NCBI GenBank assembly: GCA_963793425.1
Contig: CAWCAG010000009.1
Location: 672,001 to 736,000, forward strand
DNA from: an uncultured cyanobacterium
GTDB lineage: Bacteria; Cyanobacteriota; Cyanobacteriia; Cyanobacteriales; CAWCAG01
Direction of reading: 5' to 3'
Length of the DNA stretch: 64,000 nt
Shown one piece after another: positions 33,001-36,000 of the stretch (position 1 is its first letter; the number at the start of each line of letters is the position of its first letter). Made by a program: the position numbers.

Positions 33001-36000
33001 GTAGAGAAGGTACGTTTGAATGTTTAGAATTGCCTGGTGGTACTAACCCTTTGTTAGGAGTTATCCCTTTAGAAGCTTTAGGCCTTGAATTAGATTTACA
33101 AAATCAAAAGTTAGTTACTTTGCCGATTAATCCCACCAAAACTTACCTAACAATTCTTTAGTAATTTTTAGGTATTAATCAAAACAAAAAATCTTGCGGA
33201 TATAGTGTAAAGGTAGCATCTGAGCTTTCCAAGCTTTAGGTACGAGTTCAAATCTCGTTATCCGCTTGCCTAGTTTGCCAAAAACTAGCAACAAACCCCT
33301 ATAGCTCAGCGCAGAGAGCAGCGCCTTTCTAAGGCGAGAGTCCTAGGTTGGAATCCTAGTGAGGGTGTTTAAATGTAGTAAAATAAAGGAGGTTATTTTC
33401 TGTTGCAACTAATTAAACACCGCATCTGCAATACAATCGCATTATCTAGCGTGACCTAATCATGAGAGCATACATACCGAGTACGAGAGGAATAAGTACC
33501 TCTGCCCTAGTTGCAGAGGGCGTGAAACATTGTTGGTACAAAGAACCCGGCAGGTTGGCTTAGAAGCAGCCATCCTTTAAAGAGTGCGTAATAGCTCATC
33601 GGCGGAGTGCCTTCTGATGTGATGAACGCTAAAAAGCTCTGATAACTTGCACGCCAAGAGCGATTGTATTGCCATAAAAAAAATACCTTGCACAACAAAG
33701 CTATTCTACTTTGAATAAAGTTTGCTCATTCAGATTTGCAGCAAACTCTAGTACCTCTAGCAATGTTTAATGTTTAATGTTCAATGATTTAGGGAGTTAA
33801 CCATGCCTGTAATTGTGATGGAAGTTAAGAGTGCAGAGAAACATCCTCATGCTGATACTTTGCAGCTCTATACTATGGTTGCTCCGGGTTATGAACAGGT
33901 ACAAATTGTTGCTAATCTGGAAAATATTTATCAAGTTGGTGATGTTGTGGCTGTTGCTTTAGTTGATTCTGTGCTTAAAGATGGGACGAAAATCAAACCT
34001 GTTAAGCTTAGAGGTATTTACTCTTTTGGTATGGCTTTAGGAAAAGTAGAAGCTGCAATTGCGAGGAATCTATCCCAAACCTATTGCCAAAAGGAGATAG
34101 TAGATAATGTACAGCTACAAAAATGGCCGAGTATTGAACTTTTAGCTAATGTACGTCGGAGTTTAGAAATTCTGGAGAAAACACCATCTGTTACTTATCG
34201 TAGCAAAGTCAAGCTAGATGGGACAAATGGTGGAGTGCAGATTTTTGCGAATGGTAAGGTTGCGGCTCAAAGTAGAACACAAATTATCACTCCAGAAAGT
34301 GATAATGCTGGGTTTGCTGCTTGGGTAAACCAGAACATTGACTATTTTGCAAACTTGGCTACCTCACAACATTTAACCTTGTTTGGTGAATGGTGCGGTA
34401 AAGGTATTCAAAAGCGTACAGCTATTGCTCAAATTGAACGTAAAGTTTTTGCTATCTTTGCGGTGCAATATGGAGGCATAGGTAGTCAGGTTGCTAAGTT
34501 AGCAGTTAATCCGGCTTCTATCCGTGCTTTGCTACCAGAACATTCTGACATTTTTGTCTTACCATTCTGGGGAGAAGCAATTACCTTGGATTTCGGGAAT
34601 GCAGCACAATTAGCACAAGCTGCTGAGAAGTTCAATTCTCTGGTTGAGGATGTTGAAGCAGTAGATCCTTGGGTTGAAGAGACTTTTGGCATCAAAGGCA
34701 TTGGTGAAGGATTGGTGATGTATCCGCAGAGTGATACCTTGGTAGATAGGCTAGAATATAGCCAATTGTTGTTTAAAGCTAAGGGTGATAAGCATCAGGT
34801 TGTCAAAACCAAAAAGCCTGTGCAAATTGCTCCTGAAGTGGCCAAGGGTGTTGATGAATTTGTCGAAATGTTCATTACGCCAGCACGTTTGGAACAAGCT
34901 ACAACGGAGGCTTGCCAAGGAGGGTTTGTGATGCAGAAAATTGGTGCATTTCTGAAATGGGTTAATACCGATGTTCAAAAAGAAAGTGTGGCTGAATTAG
35001 AAGCCGCAAACTTAACTTGGAAGCAGGTTAATAAAGGGGTGACTAAGGCAGCAAAAGTATGGTATCAGGGGAAGGTAATGGGTAATAGGTAATAGGTAAT
35101 AGGTATGATCTCAAATCTGGTTCATAAAGTGCCTTGATAAAATCATGGCATCAAGTTTTCAAACCCTGCTCCCTACTCCCTACTCCCCACCCTAACCGAT
35201 AACCTTTGCAACCAAACCCAGGACTTAATATGACTATCTACTTCTATGGCCCTCGTGTCAAACCCTATGGTTGTTTTTCCAACTTTTCTCGTCATGGTTT
35301 TGAGTTAGACGGTGCTTGGTGGGCTACTAGTGAGCATTATTTTCAAGCACAAAAATTTATCAATACTGATGCAGAATGGGCTGAAAAAATTCGTGGGGCT
35401 AAAAGTCCTAAAGAAGCTGCTAAAATGGGACGCGATCGCAATTATCCTTTACGCAGTGATTGGGAAAAAGTTAAGGATGGCATTATGCAACGCGCTGTGT
35501 TGCAGAAGTTTTCTACCCACAATGATCTCCGTGAGATTCTTATTAATACAGGGGATGAGTTAATTGTGGAAAATGCTCCCGGAGATTACTACTGGGGTTG
35601 TGGCAAAGATGGCAGCGGCAAGAATAAGTTAGGAGAAATTCTCATGGCAGTACGAGAAACTTTGCAGAAGAATCAAGAGTCGTAAAGGTAATCGGGAAGA
35701 GTTGATAGTAACATCTTCCCAACTTCCAATAATTAAGGGGAGGTTGTCTAAAAGGCAAGACACCGTAGAAAAGTTTTAAAACGGTTCCCACAAGGACAAT
35801 CGGGTTTTCCTTAGTAAGGTCAAAAGTTGCATCGCGACATTCCCTGAATGGGCAAACGGGTAACAGGTTGCAGAGGCACTGAAAGGAATTAATAGTCCGA
35901 AATGGGGGTGGTTCCCATTTGCTGTAAAGGTAGTAAGGAAGCACTTTTCCTGAAAGTTACCGTCGGTTGATGCGGGTTCAAATCCCGTCCTCTCCATTTT

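What a model noticed while it worked through the whole genome (the two positions that open the first line are those of the whole stretch)
35737..35996. 260-nt tRNA-Ala-like RNA with a 185-nt structured insertion, conserved inside cyanobacterial tRNA arrays
Directly after the NADAR gene of the tRNA-array island lies a 260-nt RNA gene whose ends form a tRNA-like acceptor stem (GGGGAGG/CCUCUCC with the G3-U70 pair typical of alanine acceptors and tmRNA, discriminator A), a D arm and a T arm, but which has an anticodon-arm-like hairpin with a 14-15-nt loop and, in place of the variable loop, a ~185-nt multi-helix domain with long invariant stretches. It is called neither tRNA, tmRNA nor group I intron by the models, and recurs full length inside tRNA arrays of other Cyanobacteriales.
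Evidence so far: ARAGORN with introns calls it 'tRNA-Gly(acc) i(30,191)'; Rfam at E<=0.01 gives only a tmRNA match of 18 bits (cut 47) to its 3' end and no intron family; ARAGORN finds no tmRNA in the four loci. Full-length matches (1-260, 79-82% identity) in 3 of 100 other sampled Cyanobacteriales genomes, each with 3-6 tRNA genes within 1.5 kb, one also beside a NADAR gene. Consensus fold of the 4 sequences: 72 pairs, -74 kcal/mol, invariant G-U at the third acceptor pair, 5 pairs with compensatory changes. Frames through the conserved UAA differ by non-synonymous changes and lie in predicted helices (read from the alignment of call 182).
(Added by a program. Inside this text positions count along the whole contig: contig position 672,001 is position 1 of the stretch shown here. 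"Call 12" and the like, gene names such as g00115 and contig names such as C1 are that model's own, and its searches are not shown. The text may have been shortened before it was handed on; [...] marks where a part breaks off. The agent that wrote the report below was given it as the finding of a first reader that could run no searches.)

Follow-up and report, generated by a model that had tools for sequence, protein, structure and literature searches.

The report
tRNA-like RNA with giant variable arm
A 260-base RNA gene inside cyanobacterial tRNA gene arrays folds as a complete alanine-type tRNA whose short variable loop is replaced by a conserved 173-base folded domain; relatives are transcribed in nature and it fits no described RNA family, so it may be a new kind of translation-related RNA.

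Summary
Window 35737-35996 (+) is a 260-nt RNA gene. It has a 7-bp acceptor stem (G3-U70, discriminator A), a D arm, a T arm and every tRNA core nucleotide. It also has a 4-bp anticodon-like stem with a 13-15-nt A-rich loop, and a 173-nt multi-helix domain where the variable arm should be.

I found 66 distinct full-length relatives: 48 GTDB species (35 labelled Microcoleus, 13 otherwise labelled) and 23 metagenome contigs. In 46 of 48 genome loci it sits on the tRNA strand of a long tRNA array, usually just after tRNA-Ser(UGA). The fold is supported by covariation: 16 pairs with compensatory changes against 7.0 +/- 1.6 in shuffles. Similarity between genera stops within 8 nt of the predicted ends.

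Metatranscriptome contigs from four studies cover a Microcoleus ortholog unspliced. It is not a tRNA, a tmRNA (no conserved reading frame; a canonical tmRNA lies elsewhere), an intron-bearing tRNA or a Y RNA.

Best reading: a new tRNA(Ala)-shaped RNA matured, and probably charged, like a tRNA, with its giant arm as the working module in the arrays' translational-stress role. The function is inferred, not shown. The same arrays also carry a conserved mimic of the ribosome's factor-binding site.

The parts
35737..35996 (+). Whole 260-nt tRNA-like RNA gene
   Evidence: Sequence. Similarity to other genera stops at RNA positions -8 to +266. There are 66 distinct full-length relatives. It is a single copy in its own genome.
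35737..35743 (+). Acceptor stem, 5' strand (RNA positions 1-7), with G3 of the G3-U70 pair
   Evidence: Pairs with 35989-35995. The G-U pair is kept in 65 of 66. Pair 7-253 shows a G-C to A-U compensatory change in 2 sequences.
35746..35761 (+). D arm (positions 10-25): 3-4 bp stem and an 8-nt loop with G18 G19
   Evidence: Pair 11-24 is U-A in the window and C-G in 65 others. A14, A15, G18, G19 and A21 are invariant in 66 of 66.
35763..35784 (+). Anticodon-arm-like hairpin (positions 27-48): 4-bp stem and a 13-15-nt A-rich loop, with no U33 or anticodon layout
   Evidence: Pair 30-45 occurs as U-G 47, U-A 8, C-G 7 and G-C 1. Loop length is 13 in 7 sequences, 14 in 18 and 15 in 41. The loop starts AAAAA or AGAAA in 66 of 66.
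35786..35796 (+). Conserved linker, possibly a 3-bp mini-hairpin (positions 50-60)
   Evidence: Pairs 50-60 and 51-59 are canonical in 66 of 66. Pair 52-58 is C-G 37, U-G 22, U-A 3, with 4 unpaired. Weakly supported.
35797..35969 (+). Variable-arm domain (positions 61-233), closed by helix Ha (61-67 with 227-233)
   Evidence: Ha pairs 62-232, 64-230 (U-A 48, C-G 12) and 65-229 covary. In one search, 5 of 7 Ha pairs change on both sides. Covariance model R1 of this domain finds only strong matches.
35804..35857 (+). Sub-domain Hb (positions 68-121), with an inner hairpin at 90-102
   Evidence: Pair 72-117 is G-C 61, A-U 3; pair 73-116 is U-G, C-G or U-A. Positions 69-112 are missing from the Leptolyngbya sp. 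Cla-17 copy (217 nt), so this part is dispensable. The inner helices never covary.
35859..35864 (+). Helix Hd, 5' strand (positions 123-128)
   Evidence: Pairs with 35956-35961. Four of 6 pairs change on both sides, and 99.4% of cells are paired.
35865..35955 (+). Core junction (positions 129-219): hairpins 133-142, 149-162, 164-184 (He), 183-197 (Hf) and 200-215 (Hg), joined by near-invariant strands
   Evidence: He and Hf covary at 165-183, 184-196 and 185-195. Hairpins 133-142, 149-162 and 200-215 are invariant, so they are unproven. RNAalifold proposes another pairing for part of this core. In region 123-225, 55 of 103 positions are invariant. AGUA (196-199) opposite GAA (216-218) looks like a bulged-G/loop-E motif; that is my reading.
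35956..35961 (+). Helix Hd, 3' strand (positions 220-225)
   Evidence: See the 5' strand.
35972..35988 (+). T arm (positions 236-252) with a TTCAAAT loop
   Evidence: T54 and A58 are kept in 66 of 66, C56 in 65 of 66, T55 in 63 of 66. The stem is 98% paired.
35989..35996 (+). Acceptor stem 3' strand and discriminator A; no encoded CCA
   Evidence: The discriminator is A in 64 of 66.
30735..36353 (+). Island that holds the RNA. It carries 7 tRNA genes (31526-31955, 33196-33367, 36042-36140), Macro (32098-32616), an Asp protease (32718-33161), an rRNA mimic (about 33445-33655), an RNA ligase with a tRNA-binding domain (33803-35092) and NADAR (35206-35685)
   Evidence: tRNAs from ARAGORN and Rfam; proteins from Pfam. 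The flanks match a same-genus genome at 86-88% identity, but this stretch does not.

Best explanation
This is the gene of a previously undescribed structured RNA. It is a complete tRNA cloverleaf of alanine identity. Its anticodon arm is reduced to a non-decoding stub, and its variable arm is expanded into a 173-nt domain: two stacked closing helices, a dispensable side hairpin, and a five-helix junction with near-invariant joining strands.

**How it most likely works.**
1. It is transcribed with, or like, the tRNAs of a horizontally transferred long tRNA array.
2. It is cut out by the tRNA-maturation enzymes (RNase P at G1; RNase Z and CCA addition after A260).
3. It is probably charged with alanine by AlaRS through G1-C72, G2-C71, G3-U70, G4-C69 and A73.
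4. The tRNA body then serves as a handle giving defined ends, stability and access to tRNA-binding machinery (AlaRS, EF-Tu, the ribosome).
5. The giant arm is the effector module: a binding platform or catalytic core.

**Proposed setting.** It acts within the arrays' role in coping with translational stress, as a non-decoding tRNA mimic.

**Shown:** the gene, the fold, the tRNA core, the array context, and transcription of orthologs without splicing.

**Inferred:** processing at the tRNA-like ends, alanylation, and everything about the target.
For: - **tRNA core.** All tertiary-interaction positions are invariant and G3-U70 is kept in 65 of 66. G-U pairs elsewhere in the molecule flip freely to G-C or A-U, for example 123-225, 127-221 and 167-181.
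- **Covariation.** 16 pairs carry compensatory changes; 0 of 500 shuffles and no slid control reach this. RNAalifold independently recovers most of the helices.
- **Unit boundaries.** Inter-genus similarity ends within 8 nt of G1 and 6 nt of A260.
- **It sits like a tRNA gene.** Across 48 loci there are 524 same-strand tRNAs against 1 opposite. tRNA-Ser(UGA) is the nearest upstream tRNA in 41 of 48. In one locus the next tRNA starts 4 nt after the discriminator (Aliterella).
- **It can stand alone.** The Symploca locus has no tRNA within 3 kb.
- **Expression.** 22 runs hold at least half of the words of a Microcoleus ortholog; 11 of them are on record as RNA, from 16 studies. In four RNA runs of four studies, contigs cover the whole RNA. 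Depths are 115, 14, 346 and 119, against 0-20 for the stretch upstream. One contig ends in sequencing adapter at RNA position 8.
- **Not coding.** 1- and 2-nt indels are common, the antisense frame is broken in the window, and Pfam finds nothing.
- **Context from the literature.** Long tRNA arrays are induced under translational stress, their tRNAs are aminoacylated, and their neighbourhoods are rich in RNA-processing genes (PMC8421152, passages read).
Against: - No data show the mature ends, a CCA tail or aminoacylation.
- RNA evidence is from contigs of Microcoleus orthologs, not from the window's organism.
- Those contigs run on for at least 200 nt past the 3' end without a break, into a region that holds a convergent ORF. 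Their depth therefore cannot be assigned to this RNA alone.
- The acceptor stem is almost invariant as a whole, so keeping G3-U70 is suggestive, not proof of selection for AlaRS.
- Five helices of the domain never vary, so the core fold is a model, and RNAalifold offers an alternative for part of it.
- The window's own fold energy is ordinary (z -0.38).
- Relatives were fished with exact motifs from the core, which inflates its apparent invariance. Two cross-checks limit this: 49 of 49 genome-derived sequences keep the second motif, and 10 of 17 metagenome-derived ones keep the first.
- No partner or target is known.
Confidence: 0.55

Rival explanations
1. The tRNA body is a scaffold only. It serves for excision by RNase P and RNase Z and for stability, as in tRNA-like ends of other RNAs. 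The RNA is not aminoacylated. The 173-nt domain acts by itself as a protein sponge, a regulator or a self-assembling RNA, as the large RNAs found beside tRNA genes may do.
For: - The array position and tRNA-like ends fit processing.
- GOLLD and ROOL RNAs also lie near tRNA genes, and GOLLD sits inside a transferred 32-tRNA cluster and contains a pseudo-tRNA (PMC5737381 and PMC6582537, passages read).
- The acceptor stem is invariant as a whole, so G3-U70 need not be selected for charging.
Against: - An acceptor/T minihelix would suffice for processing. Yet the D stem, the anticodon-stem stub (with covariation at 30-45), A26 and the A15-U48 pair are all kept.
- The full alanine identity set is present: the first four pairs plus A73.
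Confidence: 0.27
2. It is a diverged second tmRNA that rescues stalled ribosomes by trans-translation with a short tag.
For: - G3-U70 and the GGGG/CUCC-A acceptor, with a T arm like that of tmRNA, give the only Rfam hit (18.2 bits).
- A giant arm at the variable-arm position matches the geometry described for tmRNA helix 2. I saw only the title of Bessho et al. 2007, in a reference list; the geometry itself is recalled.
- The window reads GCA AAC GGG TAA at positions 116-127.
Against: - The score is far below the cut-off of 47, and ARAGORN calls tmRNA in 0 of 66.
- It has a real D stem and an anticodon-stem stub, which tmRNA lacks.
- No frame is conserved. Positions 125-127 lie in helix Hd and vary as base pairs, and 1-nt indels shift the frames.
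- The longest stop-free run in sense frame +0 has a median of 21 aa.
- The genome has a canonical tmRNA at 124.8 bits.
Confidence: 0.05
3. It is a tRNA gene, or its relic, interrupted by an intron or a mobile insertion that is spliced out or is simply decaying.
For: - ARAGORN with introns calls tRNA-Gly(acc) i(30,191) in the window.
- Cyanobacterial tRNAs are known to carry group I introns (recalled).
- Other array tRNAs, and three relatives of this RNA, carry a 26-nt insert in the T loop.
Against: - The intron call fails in 61 of 66 relatives, and the other five disagree in anticodon and position.
- The 3' flank cannot form a conserved anticodon stem (alignments).
- No intron family appears at E<=10.
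- RNA-run contigs of four studies show no joint.
- The insertion ends pair with each other with compensatory changes, as a variable arm does.
- 76-84% identity across at least 10 differently labelled lineages, with 16 compensated pairs, is not decay.
Confidence: 0.05
4. It is a decoy that soaks up a tRNA-directed toxin, nuclease or antibiotic-bound factor, as part of an array that acts as a defence or anti-defence kit.
For: - The same arrays carry a conserved mimic of the ribosomal sarcin-ricin loop plus the GTPase-associated centre.
- tRNA arrays are discussed as an anti-defence system (PMC12803027, abstract in a listing).
- The island encodes an RNA ligase with a tRNA-binding domain, a Macro protein and NADAR.
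Against: - No toxin or partner is identified.
- The motif is not found in viral contigs (0 matches for two motifs) or in phage or plasmid records.
- The repair genes lie within 3 kb in only 7 of 48 loci for the ligase and 0 of 48 for NADAR.
Confidence: 0.1

Closest known systems
tmRNA (SsrA, Rfam RF00023)
   Same: Both are alanine-type tRNA mimics with G3-U70, a T arm and a large RNA module leaving the tRNA core where a long variable arm would. Both are tied to translational trouble.
   Different: This RNA keeps a true D stem and an anticodon-stem stub. It has no pseudoknot ring supported by covariation and no conserved reading frame. It scores 18.2 bits against a cut-off of 47, is about 260 nt rather than about 400, and coexists with a canonical tmRNA.
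Class II tRNAs (Ser, Leu, Tyr) with long variable arms
   Same: Both have a cloverleaf with a helix emerging between the anticodon stem and the T stem. This RNA lies directly after tRNA-Ser genes in the arrays.
   Different: The arm is 173 nt with a five-helix junction, instead of the 10-24 nt I recall for class II tRNAs. The anticodon loop is 13-15 nt with no anticodon layout. The identity is alanine. tRNA models do not call it.
GOLLD and ROOL RNAs
   Same: All are large ornate RNAs of unknown function that lie beside or inside transferred tRNA gene clusters. GOLLD contains a pseudo-tRNA (PMC5737381, PMC6582537).
   Different: There is no sequence or model match. This RNA is much smaller, and the relation is inverted: here the ornate domain sits inside a tRNA. 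It is found only in Cyanobacteria and not in viral contigs.
YrlA, the bacterial tRNA-like Y RNA (Rfam RF02553)
   Same: Both are non-coding RNAs with a tRNA-like module, linked to RNA-repair genes (PMC4201824, abstract in a listing).
   Different: In YrlA the RNA ends form the Ro-binding helix and the tRNA-like part is internal (recalled); here the ends form the acceptor stem. The Rfam YrlA hit of 24.3 bits (cut-off 69) spans two separate genes. No Ro60/TROVE gene is found in the genome.
Aminoacylatable tRNA-like structures at the 3' ends of plant viral RNAs (recalled)
   Same: In both, a tRNA mimic would be used as a handle for host tRNA enzymes and elongation factor rather than for decoding.
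   Different: Those are the ends of long viral genomes, built with pseudoknotted acceptor stems. This is a free-standing bacterial gene with a canonical acceptor stem. Not tested here.

Membership tests
tRNA (RF00005) | 7-bp acceptor stem, D arm, T arm and conserved tertiary nucleotides | tested here: met
   U8, A14, A15, G18, G19, A21, T54 and A58 in 66 of 66.
tRNA (RF00005) | 5-bp anticodon stem with a 7-nt loop carrying U33 and an anticodon | tested here: not met
   The stem has 4 bp and the loop 13-15 nt, starting ARAAA.
tRNA (RF00005) | Variable region of tRNA size, and recognition by tRNA models | tested here: not met
   144-188 nt lie between the anticodon-like stem and the T stem. ARAGORN by default and Rfam tRNA give no call.
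tmRNA (RF00023) | tRNA-like domain with G3-U70 and a T arm | tested here: met
tmRNA (RF00023) | Resume codon and a conserved tag reading frame ending in a stop | tested here: not met
   No frame is kept across the family. Candidate stops lie in covarying helices, and 1-2-nt indels are common.
tmRNA (RF00023) | Model score above cut-off, or an ARAGORN tmRNA call | tested here: not met
   18.2 bits against 47; 0 of 66 called.
tRNA with group I intron (RF00028) | Match to the intron model | tested here: not met
   No intron family at E<=10 in 35650-36200, and none at gathering score in four relatives' loci.
tRNA with group I intron (RF00028) | Exons that join into a normal tRNA, and a spliced form in RNA | tested here: not met
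   ARAGORN -i gives nothing in 61 of 66 and 5 discordant calls. No joints in RNA contigs of 4 studies; contigs can miss rare forms.
Y RNA / YrlA (RF02553) | Ro60-binding helix formed by the RNA ends, and a Ro60 (TROVE) gene in the genome | tested here: not met
   The ends form an acceptor stem. TROVE: 0 matches in the 98.6%-complete genome. YrlA scores 24.3 bits against 69.
GOLLD / ROOL | Match to the Rfam models | tested here: not met
   No match in the window or in four relatives' loci.
Alanine-accepting RNAs (AlaRS substrates) | G3-U70 in a 7-bp acceptor helix with A73 (identity rules recalled) | tested here: met
   G3-U70 in 65 of 66; A73 in 64 of 66.
Alanine-accepting RNAs (AlaRS substrates) | Actual charging with alanine | not testable with these tools
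   Needs an AlaRS assay or acid-gel Northern.

The most novel reading that the evidence does not exclude
The RNA is an RNA-only counterpart of the tmRNA-SmpB particle. It would be an alanyl-tRNA-shaped molecule that EF-Tu brings to ribosomes stalled by antibiotics or toxins. Its own anticodon stub would play the part that SmpB plays for tmRNA, and its giant variable arm would work outside the A site. It would act together with the array's second accessory RNA, a mimic of the ribosome's sarcin-ricin loop and GTPase-associated centre. Together they would form a horizontally transferred RNA toolkit for surviving attacks on translation.
Probability: 0.12. Interest if true: 0.95.

Novelty: new variant of a known kind. 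Interest (0 to 1): 0.78.

Why it matters
Long tRNA arrays spread between bacteria and help cyanobacteria survive translational stress, but they have been read only as sets of spare tRNAs. This work shows that they also carry conserved, expressed, non-tRNA RNAs.

The RNA studied here is the first case I know of where a complete tRNA cloverleaf carries a large folded domain as its variable arm. That architecture was previously approached only by tmRNA with its protein partner.

If it is charged and reaches the ribosome, it opens a new route of ribosome-directed RNA action. If it is only scaffolded by the tRNA, it is a natural example of the tRNA-scaffold trick used in the laboratory. Either way the question is directly testable: the RNA is 260 nt, abundant in biocrust and soil metatranscriptomes, and present in culturable Microcoleus strains.

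Tried and rejected
- **Wider homology.** blastn against plasmid and phage records found no match. Two exact motifs in viral contigs gave 0 matches.
- **Covariance model of the domain.** In 151 genomes of the order it matched 7, all at E<1e-45, with nothing intermediate, so no distant relatives were gained.
- **All-against-all covariation scan for pseudoknots.** Single divergent sequences dominated it and it gave nothing usable. A candidate pairing of the He loop with positions 119-123 did not covary (by eye on the alignments).
- **tmRNA-like frames.** Frames through the conserved UGA and UAA triplets were read by eye on the alignments. None is kept in frame.
- **Antisense ORFs.** These are 115 aa in a Microcoleus locus and 100 and 121 aa in the window. 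The frame is broken between genera and Pfam finds nothing.
- **Pairing with the array's rRNA mimic.** Duplex energies were no better than shuffles in 3 of 3 species pairs.
- **Literature.** Bessho et al. 2007 is not held. A search for the small-dispersed-repeat paper that I recall did not find it.
- **Ends of the RNA.** The RNA-run contigs cannot show 5' or 3' ends or CCA. Their breaks at locus position 3174 are strain differences, since loose ends continue there.
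Full report
**What is there.**
- A 7-bp acceptor stem, GGGGAGG with CCTCTCC, has G-U at the third pair and a discriminator A. No CCA is encoded.
- The D arm spans positions 10-25, with G18 G19 in an 8-nt loop.
- A 4-bp hairpin (27-30 with 45-48) carries a 14-nt A-rich loop.
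- The T arm spans 236-252, with a TTCAAAT loop.
- Between the hairpin and the T arm lie 187 nt.

ARAGORN calls six tRNAs in the window but nothing here. Rfam at gathering scores calls nothing here. At E<=10 the only relevant hit is tmRNA at 18.2 bits (cut-off 47) on the T arm and acceptor end, and no intron family appears. The window's own minimum free energy is ordinary: -72.3 kcal/mol against -70.5 +/- 4.9 for shuffles, z -0.38.

**Relatives.**
- BLAST of the 260 nt against 401 genomes sampled from the phylum found 12 full-length copies, own included. Eleven of 19 genomes of one genus had it; a 13th match is a 24-nt T-arm hit.
- The RNA is single-copy in its genome.
- An exact scan of one genome per 185,579 species with a 20-letter motif from the core gave 49 loci. 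Of these, 48 hold the RNA and the Cytophagales locus is a chance hit.
- By record title, 35 are Microcoleus. The other 13 are Symploca, Lyngbya, Aerosakkonema, Argonema, Kamptonema, Aliterella, Leptolyngbya sp. Cla-17, and unnamed Oscillatoriales or cyanobacterial bins.
- A second, non-overlapping 24-letter motif scanned over metagenome contigs gave 23 loci, all of them relatives: 22 full-length and one 3' fragment.
- Dropped before counting: the fragment L072 and a truncated second copy in L039.
- That leaves 66 distinct full-length sequences, 76.7-84.2% identical to the window's.
- The motifs bias the sample toward a conserved core. As a cross-check, 49 of 49 genome-derived sequences keep the second motif exactly, and 10 of 17 metagenome-derived ones keep the first.
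- A covariance model of the domain matched 7 of 151 genomes of the order, all at E<1e-45, with nothing in between. A same-genus genome and a same-family genome lack it.
- No match was found in plasmid or phage records or in viral contigs.

**Fold.** I read helices from the alignments and counted them on all 66 sequences and on 30 representatives at under 97.5% identity.

Helices supported by changes on both sides of a pair:
- acceptor 7-253 (G-C or A-U)
- D stem 11-24
- anticodon-like stem 30-45 (U-G 47, U-A 8, C-G 7, G-C 1)
- Ha 61-67 with 227-233 (for example 64-230: U-A 48, C-G 12)
- Hb 68-73 with 116-121 (72-117: G-C 61, A-U 3)
- Hd 123-128 with 220-225 (four of six pairs compensated; all 66 of 66 canonical except one cell)
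- He 164-170 with 178-184
- Hf 183-187 with 193-197

Overall, 96.7% of cells are paired. Sixteen pairs have compensatory changes, against 7.0 +/- 1.6 in 500 shuffles (0 reach it) and 0-5 when partners are slid. RNAalifold found 68 pairs, 12 of them compensated, and the same long-range helices.

Five helices never vary (79-83 with 106-110, 90-102, 133-142, 149-162, 200-215), so they are unproven. RNAalifold pairs part of the core differently. No pseudoknot gained support (and by eye).

The Leptolyngbya copy lacks positions 69-112, so Hb is a dispensable module. AGUA (196-199) facing GAA (216-218) at the foot of hairpin 200-215 looks like a bulged-G/loop-E motif. That is my reading, untested.

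**It is a tRNA body.**
- U8, A14, A15, G18, G19, A21, A26, the base before the T stem (U, a partner for A15), T54 and A58 are invariant in 66 of 66.
- C56 is kept in 65 of 66. T55 is kept in 63 of 66; the three exceptions carry an insert there.
- G3-U70 is kept in 65 of 66 and discriminator A in 64 of 66.
- G-U pairs elsewhere switch freely to G-C or A-U.
- The first four acceptor pairs plus A73 are the alanine identity set as I recall it.
- The anticodon-like loop has 13-15 nt, starts ARAAA, has no U33 or anticodon layout, and is variable in the middle. Decoding is therefore excluded.

**It is one unit.** With 150 nt of flank added to the query, similarity to other genera begins at positions -8 to +1 and ends at 260 to 266.

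**Context.**
- In 48 genome loci (+/-3 kb), ARAGORN finds 524 tRNAs on the RNA's strand and 1 on the other.
- 46 loci have three or more same-strand tRNAs.
- The nearest upstream tRNA is Ser(UGA) in 41 of 48, at 59-1830 nt.
- Downstream come Lys or Arg tRNAs. In Aliterella the next one starts 4 nt after the discriminator.
- Arrays without the RNA run straight from Ser(UGA) to Arg(ACG).
- In Symploca the gene stands alone.
- In the window it lies in a 5.6-kb island (about 30735-36353). The island holds seven tRNA genes, a Macro protein, an aspartyl protease, an RNA ligase fused to a tRNA-binding domain, and NADAR.
- The island is missing from a same-genus genome whose flanks match at 86-88%.
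- The ligase recurs within 3 kb in 7 of 48 loci, the protease in 11 (one of them partial), and NADAR in none.
- Long tRNA arrays are reported to spread horizontally, to be induced by translation inhibitors, to yield aminoacylated tRNAs, and to sit among RNA-processing genes. That paper never uses the words tRNA-like or tmRNA (PMC8421152, passages).

**Expression.**
- For a Microcoleus ortholog with 44 and 48 nt of flank, 22 public runs hold at least half of the sampled words. Eleven are on record as RNA, and the runs come from 16 studies.
- I laid four RNA runs from four studies (soil, ice, biocrust, soil), all as contigs.
- Contigs cover the whole RNA in all four. Depths are 115, 14, 346 and 119, against 0-20 for the stretch upstream. 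This argues against DNA carry-over.
- No joint, and so no spliced form, was seen.
- One contig ends in sequencing adapter at RNA position 8. This is a weak hint of a 5' end or a reverse-transcription stop near G1.

Against my reading:
- The contigs run on for at least 200 nt past the 3' end, into a strongly self-complementary stretch and a convergent ORF. Depth therefore cannot be assigned to the RNA alone.
- No 3' end or CCA can be seen.
- Nothing is known for the window's own organism.

**What it is not.**
- **tmRNA.** The score is below cut-off and ARAGORN of 66. It has a real D stem. No frame is kept: the window's GCA AAC GGG TAA at 116-127 falls in covarying helix Hd, and 1-2-nt indels are common. 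A canonical tmRNA scores 124.8 bits elsewhere in the genome.
- **Intron-bearing tRNA.** ARAGORN -i gives no call in 61 of 66 and five discordant calls. No intron model matches and no joint is seen. The ends of the insertion pair with each other, as an arm does.
- **Y RNA.** The genome has no TROVE gene, and the YrlA hit spans two genes.
- **Coding.** The antisense frames break between genera and Pfam finds nothing.

**Prior description.** Full-text searches found no description of such an RNA.

**Mechanism, with odds.** I commit to a tRNA(Ala)-shaped RNA that is matured like a tRNA and probably alanylated. Its body is a handle for tRNA machinery, and its giant arm is the effector in the arrays' stress role.

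My odds for the statement as a whole are about 0.55. That is lower than each step taken alone:
- a real structured RNA gene: about 0.9
- tRNA-like processing: about 0.65
- charging with alanine: about 0.55
- action at EF-Tu or the ribosome: about 0.3

The rivals are a pure scaffold without charging (0.27), a decoy (0.10), a diverged tmRNA (0.05) and an intron relic (0.05).

The closest known things are tmRNA, class II tRNAs and GOLLD/ROOL. tmRNA has the same identity and arm geometry but needs SmpB and carries a message. Class II tRNAs have the same arm position at a tenth of the size. GOLLD and ROOL are ornate RNAs beside tRNA clusters; GOLLD lies inside a transferred 32-tRNA cluster and contains a pseudo-tRNA (PMC5737381 and PMC6582537, passages). 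I file it under none of them.

**Verdict.** It is a new variant of the tRNA-mimic kind, with function open. Interest 0.78.

Noticed in passing
window 33445-33655 (+); also L112-L122 and many array loci: A second conserved non-tRNA RNA lies in the arrays. It is an element of about 210 nt that carries the exact sarcin-ricin-loop 12-mer (window 33480-33491). About 55 nt downstream it carries a copy of the 23S GTPase-associated centre (33535-33611; Rfam LSU positions 1080-1157, 55-61 bits), which is only 87% identical to the genome's own 23S.

Near-full-length copies (72-82% identity) occur in many of 401 sampled Cyanobacteriales genomes, apart from the true 23S hits. The 12-mer is present in 46 of 122 fetched loci: 28 of the 48 loci that hold the tRNA-like RNA, and 11 of 11 loci fetched for this element. 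Where I read positions against the tRNA lists (L023 and L122), it lies on the tRNA strand in a 317-332-nt gap next to tRNA-Arg(UCU).

It looks like a mimic of the ribosome's factor-binding site. My one literature search found no description. Evidence.
   Followed up: partly
window 36042-36140 (+); L088, L090, L092: The tRNA-Lys(UUU) gene after the RNA (Rfam tRNA, 57.7 bits) has an insert in its T loop (shown as 31 unaligned positions). Three metagenomic relatives of the 260-nt RNA carry a like 26-nt insert at the same place, right after T54. The insert has a hairpin that covaries (CTCC/GGAG against TGCGC/GCGCA), followed by a conserved GCTACGC-like tail.

A like sequence also lies at one non-tRNA site of the genome (L094). 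It resembles the very small dispersed repeats of filamentous cyanobacteria that I recall from Elhai et al. 2008; I could not verify that (the search did not find the paper). Evidence.
   Followed up: partly
window 33803-35092 (+): A 429-aa protein joins an N-terminal tRNA-binding domain (PF01588) to an RNA ligase domain (PF09414). It lies inside the tRNA island, next to Macro (32098-32616) and NADAR (35206-35685) genes. Homologs at 65-67% identity lie within 3 kb of the RNA in 7 of 48 loci. This suggests a tRNA-repair cassette that travels with the arrays.
   Followed up: partly
L036 2790-2895 (-), just downstream of the Microcoleus ortholog: A stretch of about 100 nt with an 11-bp terminal inverted repeat (CCAACCCGTGC with GCACGGGTTGG) and inner complementary segments follows the RNA. 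The same high-depth RNA-run contigs cover it. It has no counterpart after the RNA in the window.
   Followed up: no
window 53072-53128 (-): Rfam match to NsiR1 (nitrogen stress-induced RNA 1), 47.9 bits against a cut-off of 39.
   Followed up: no
own genome, contig C5 853447-853620 (+), outside the window: An Rfam tRNA match of 33.8 bits spans 174 nt, so a tRNA there has an insertion of about 100 nt. I did not look at it.
   Followed up: no
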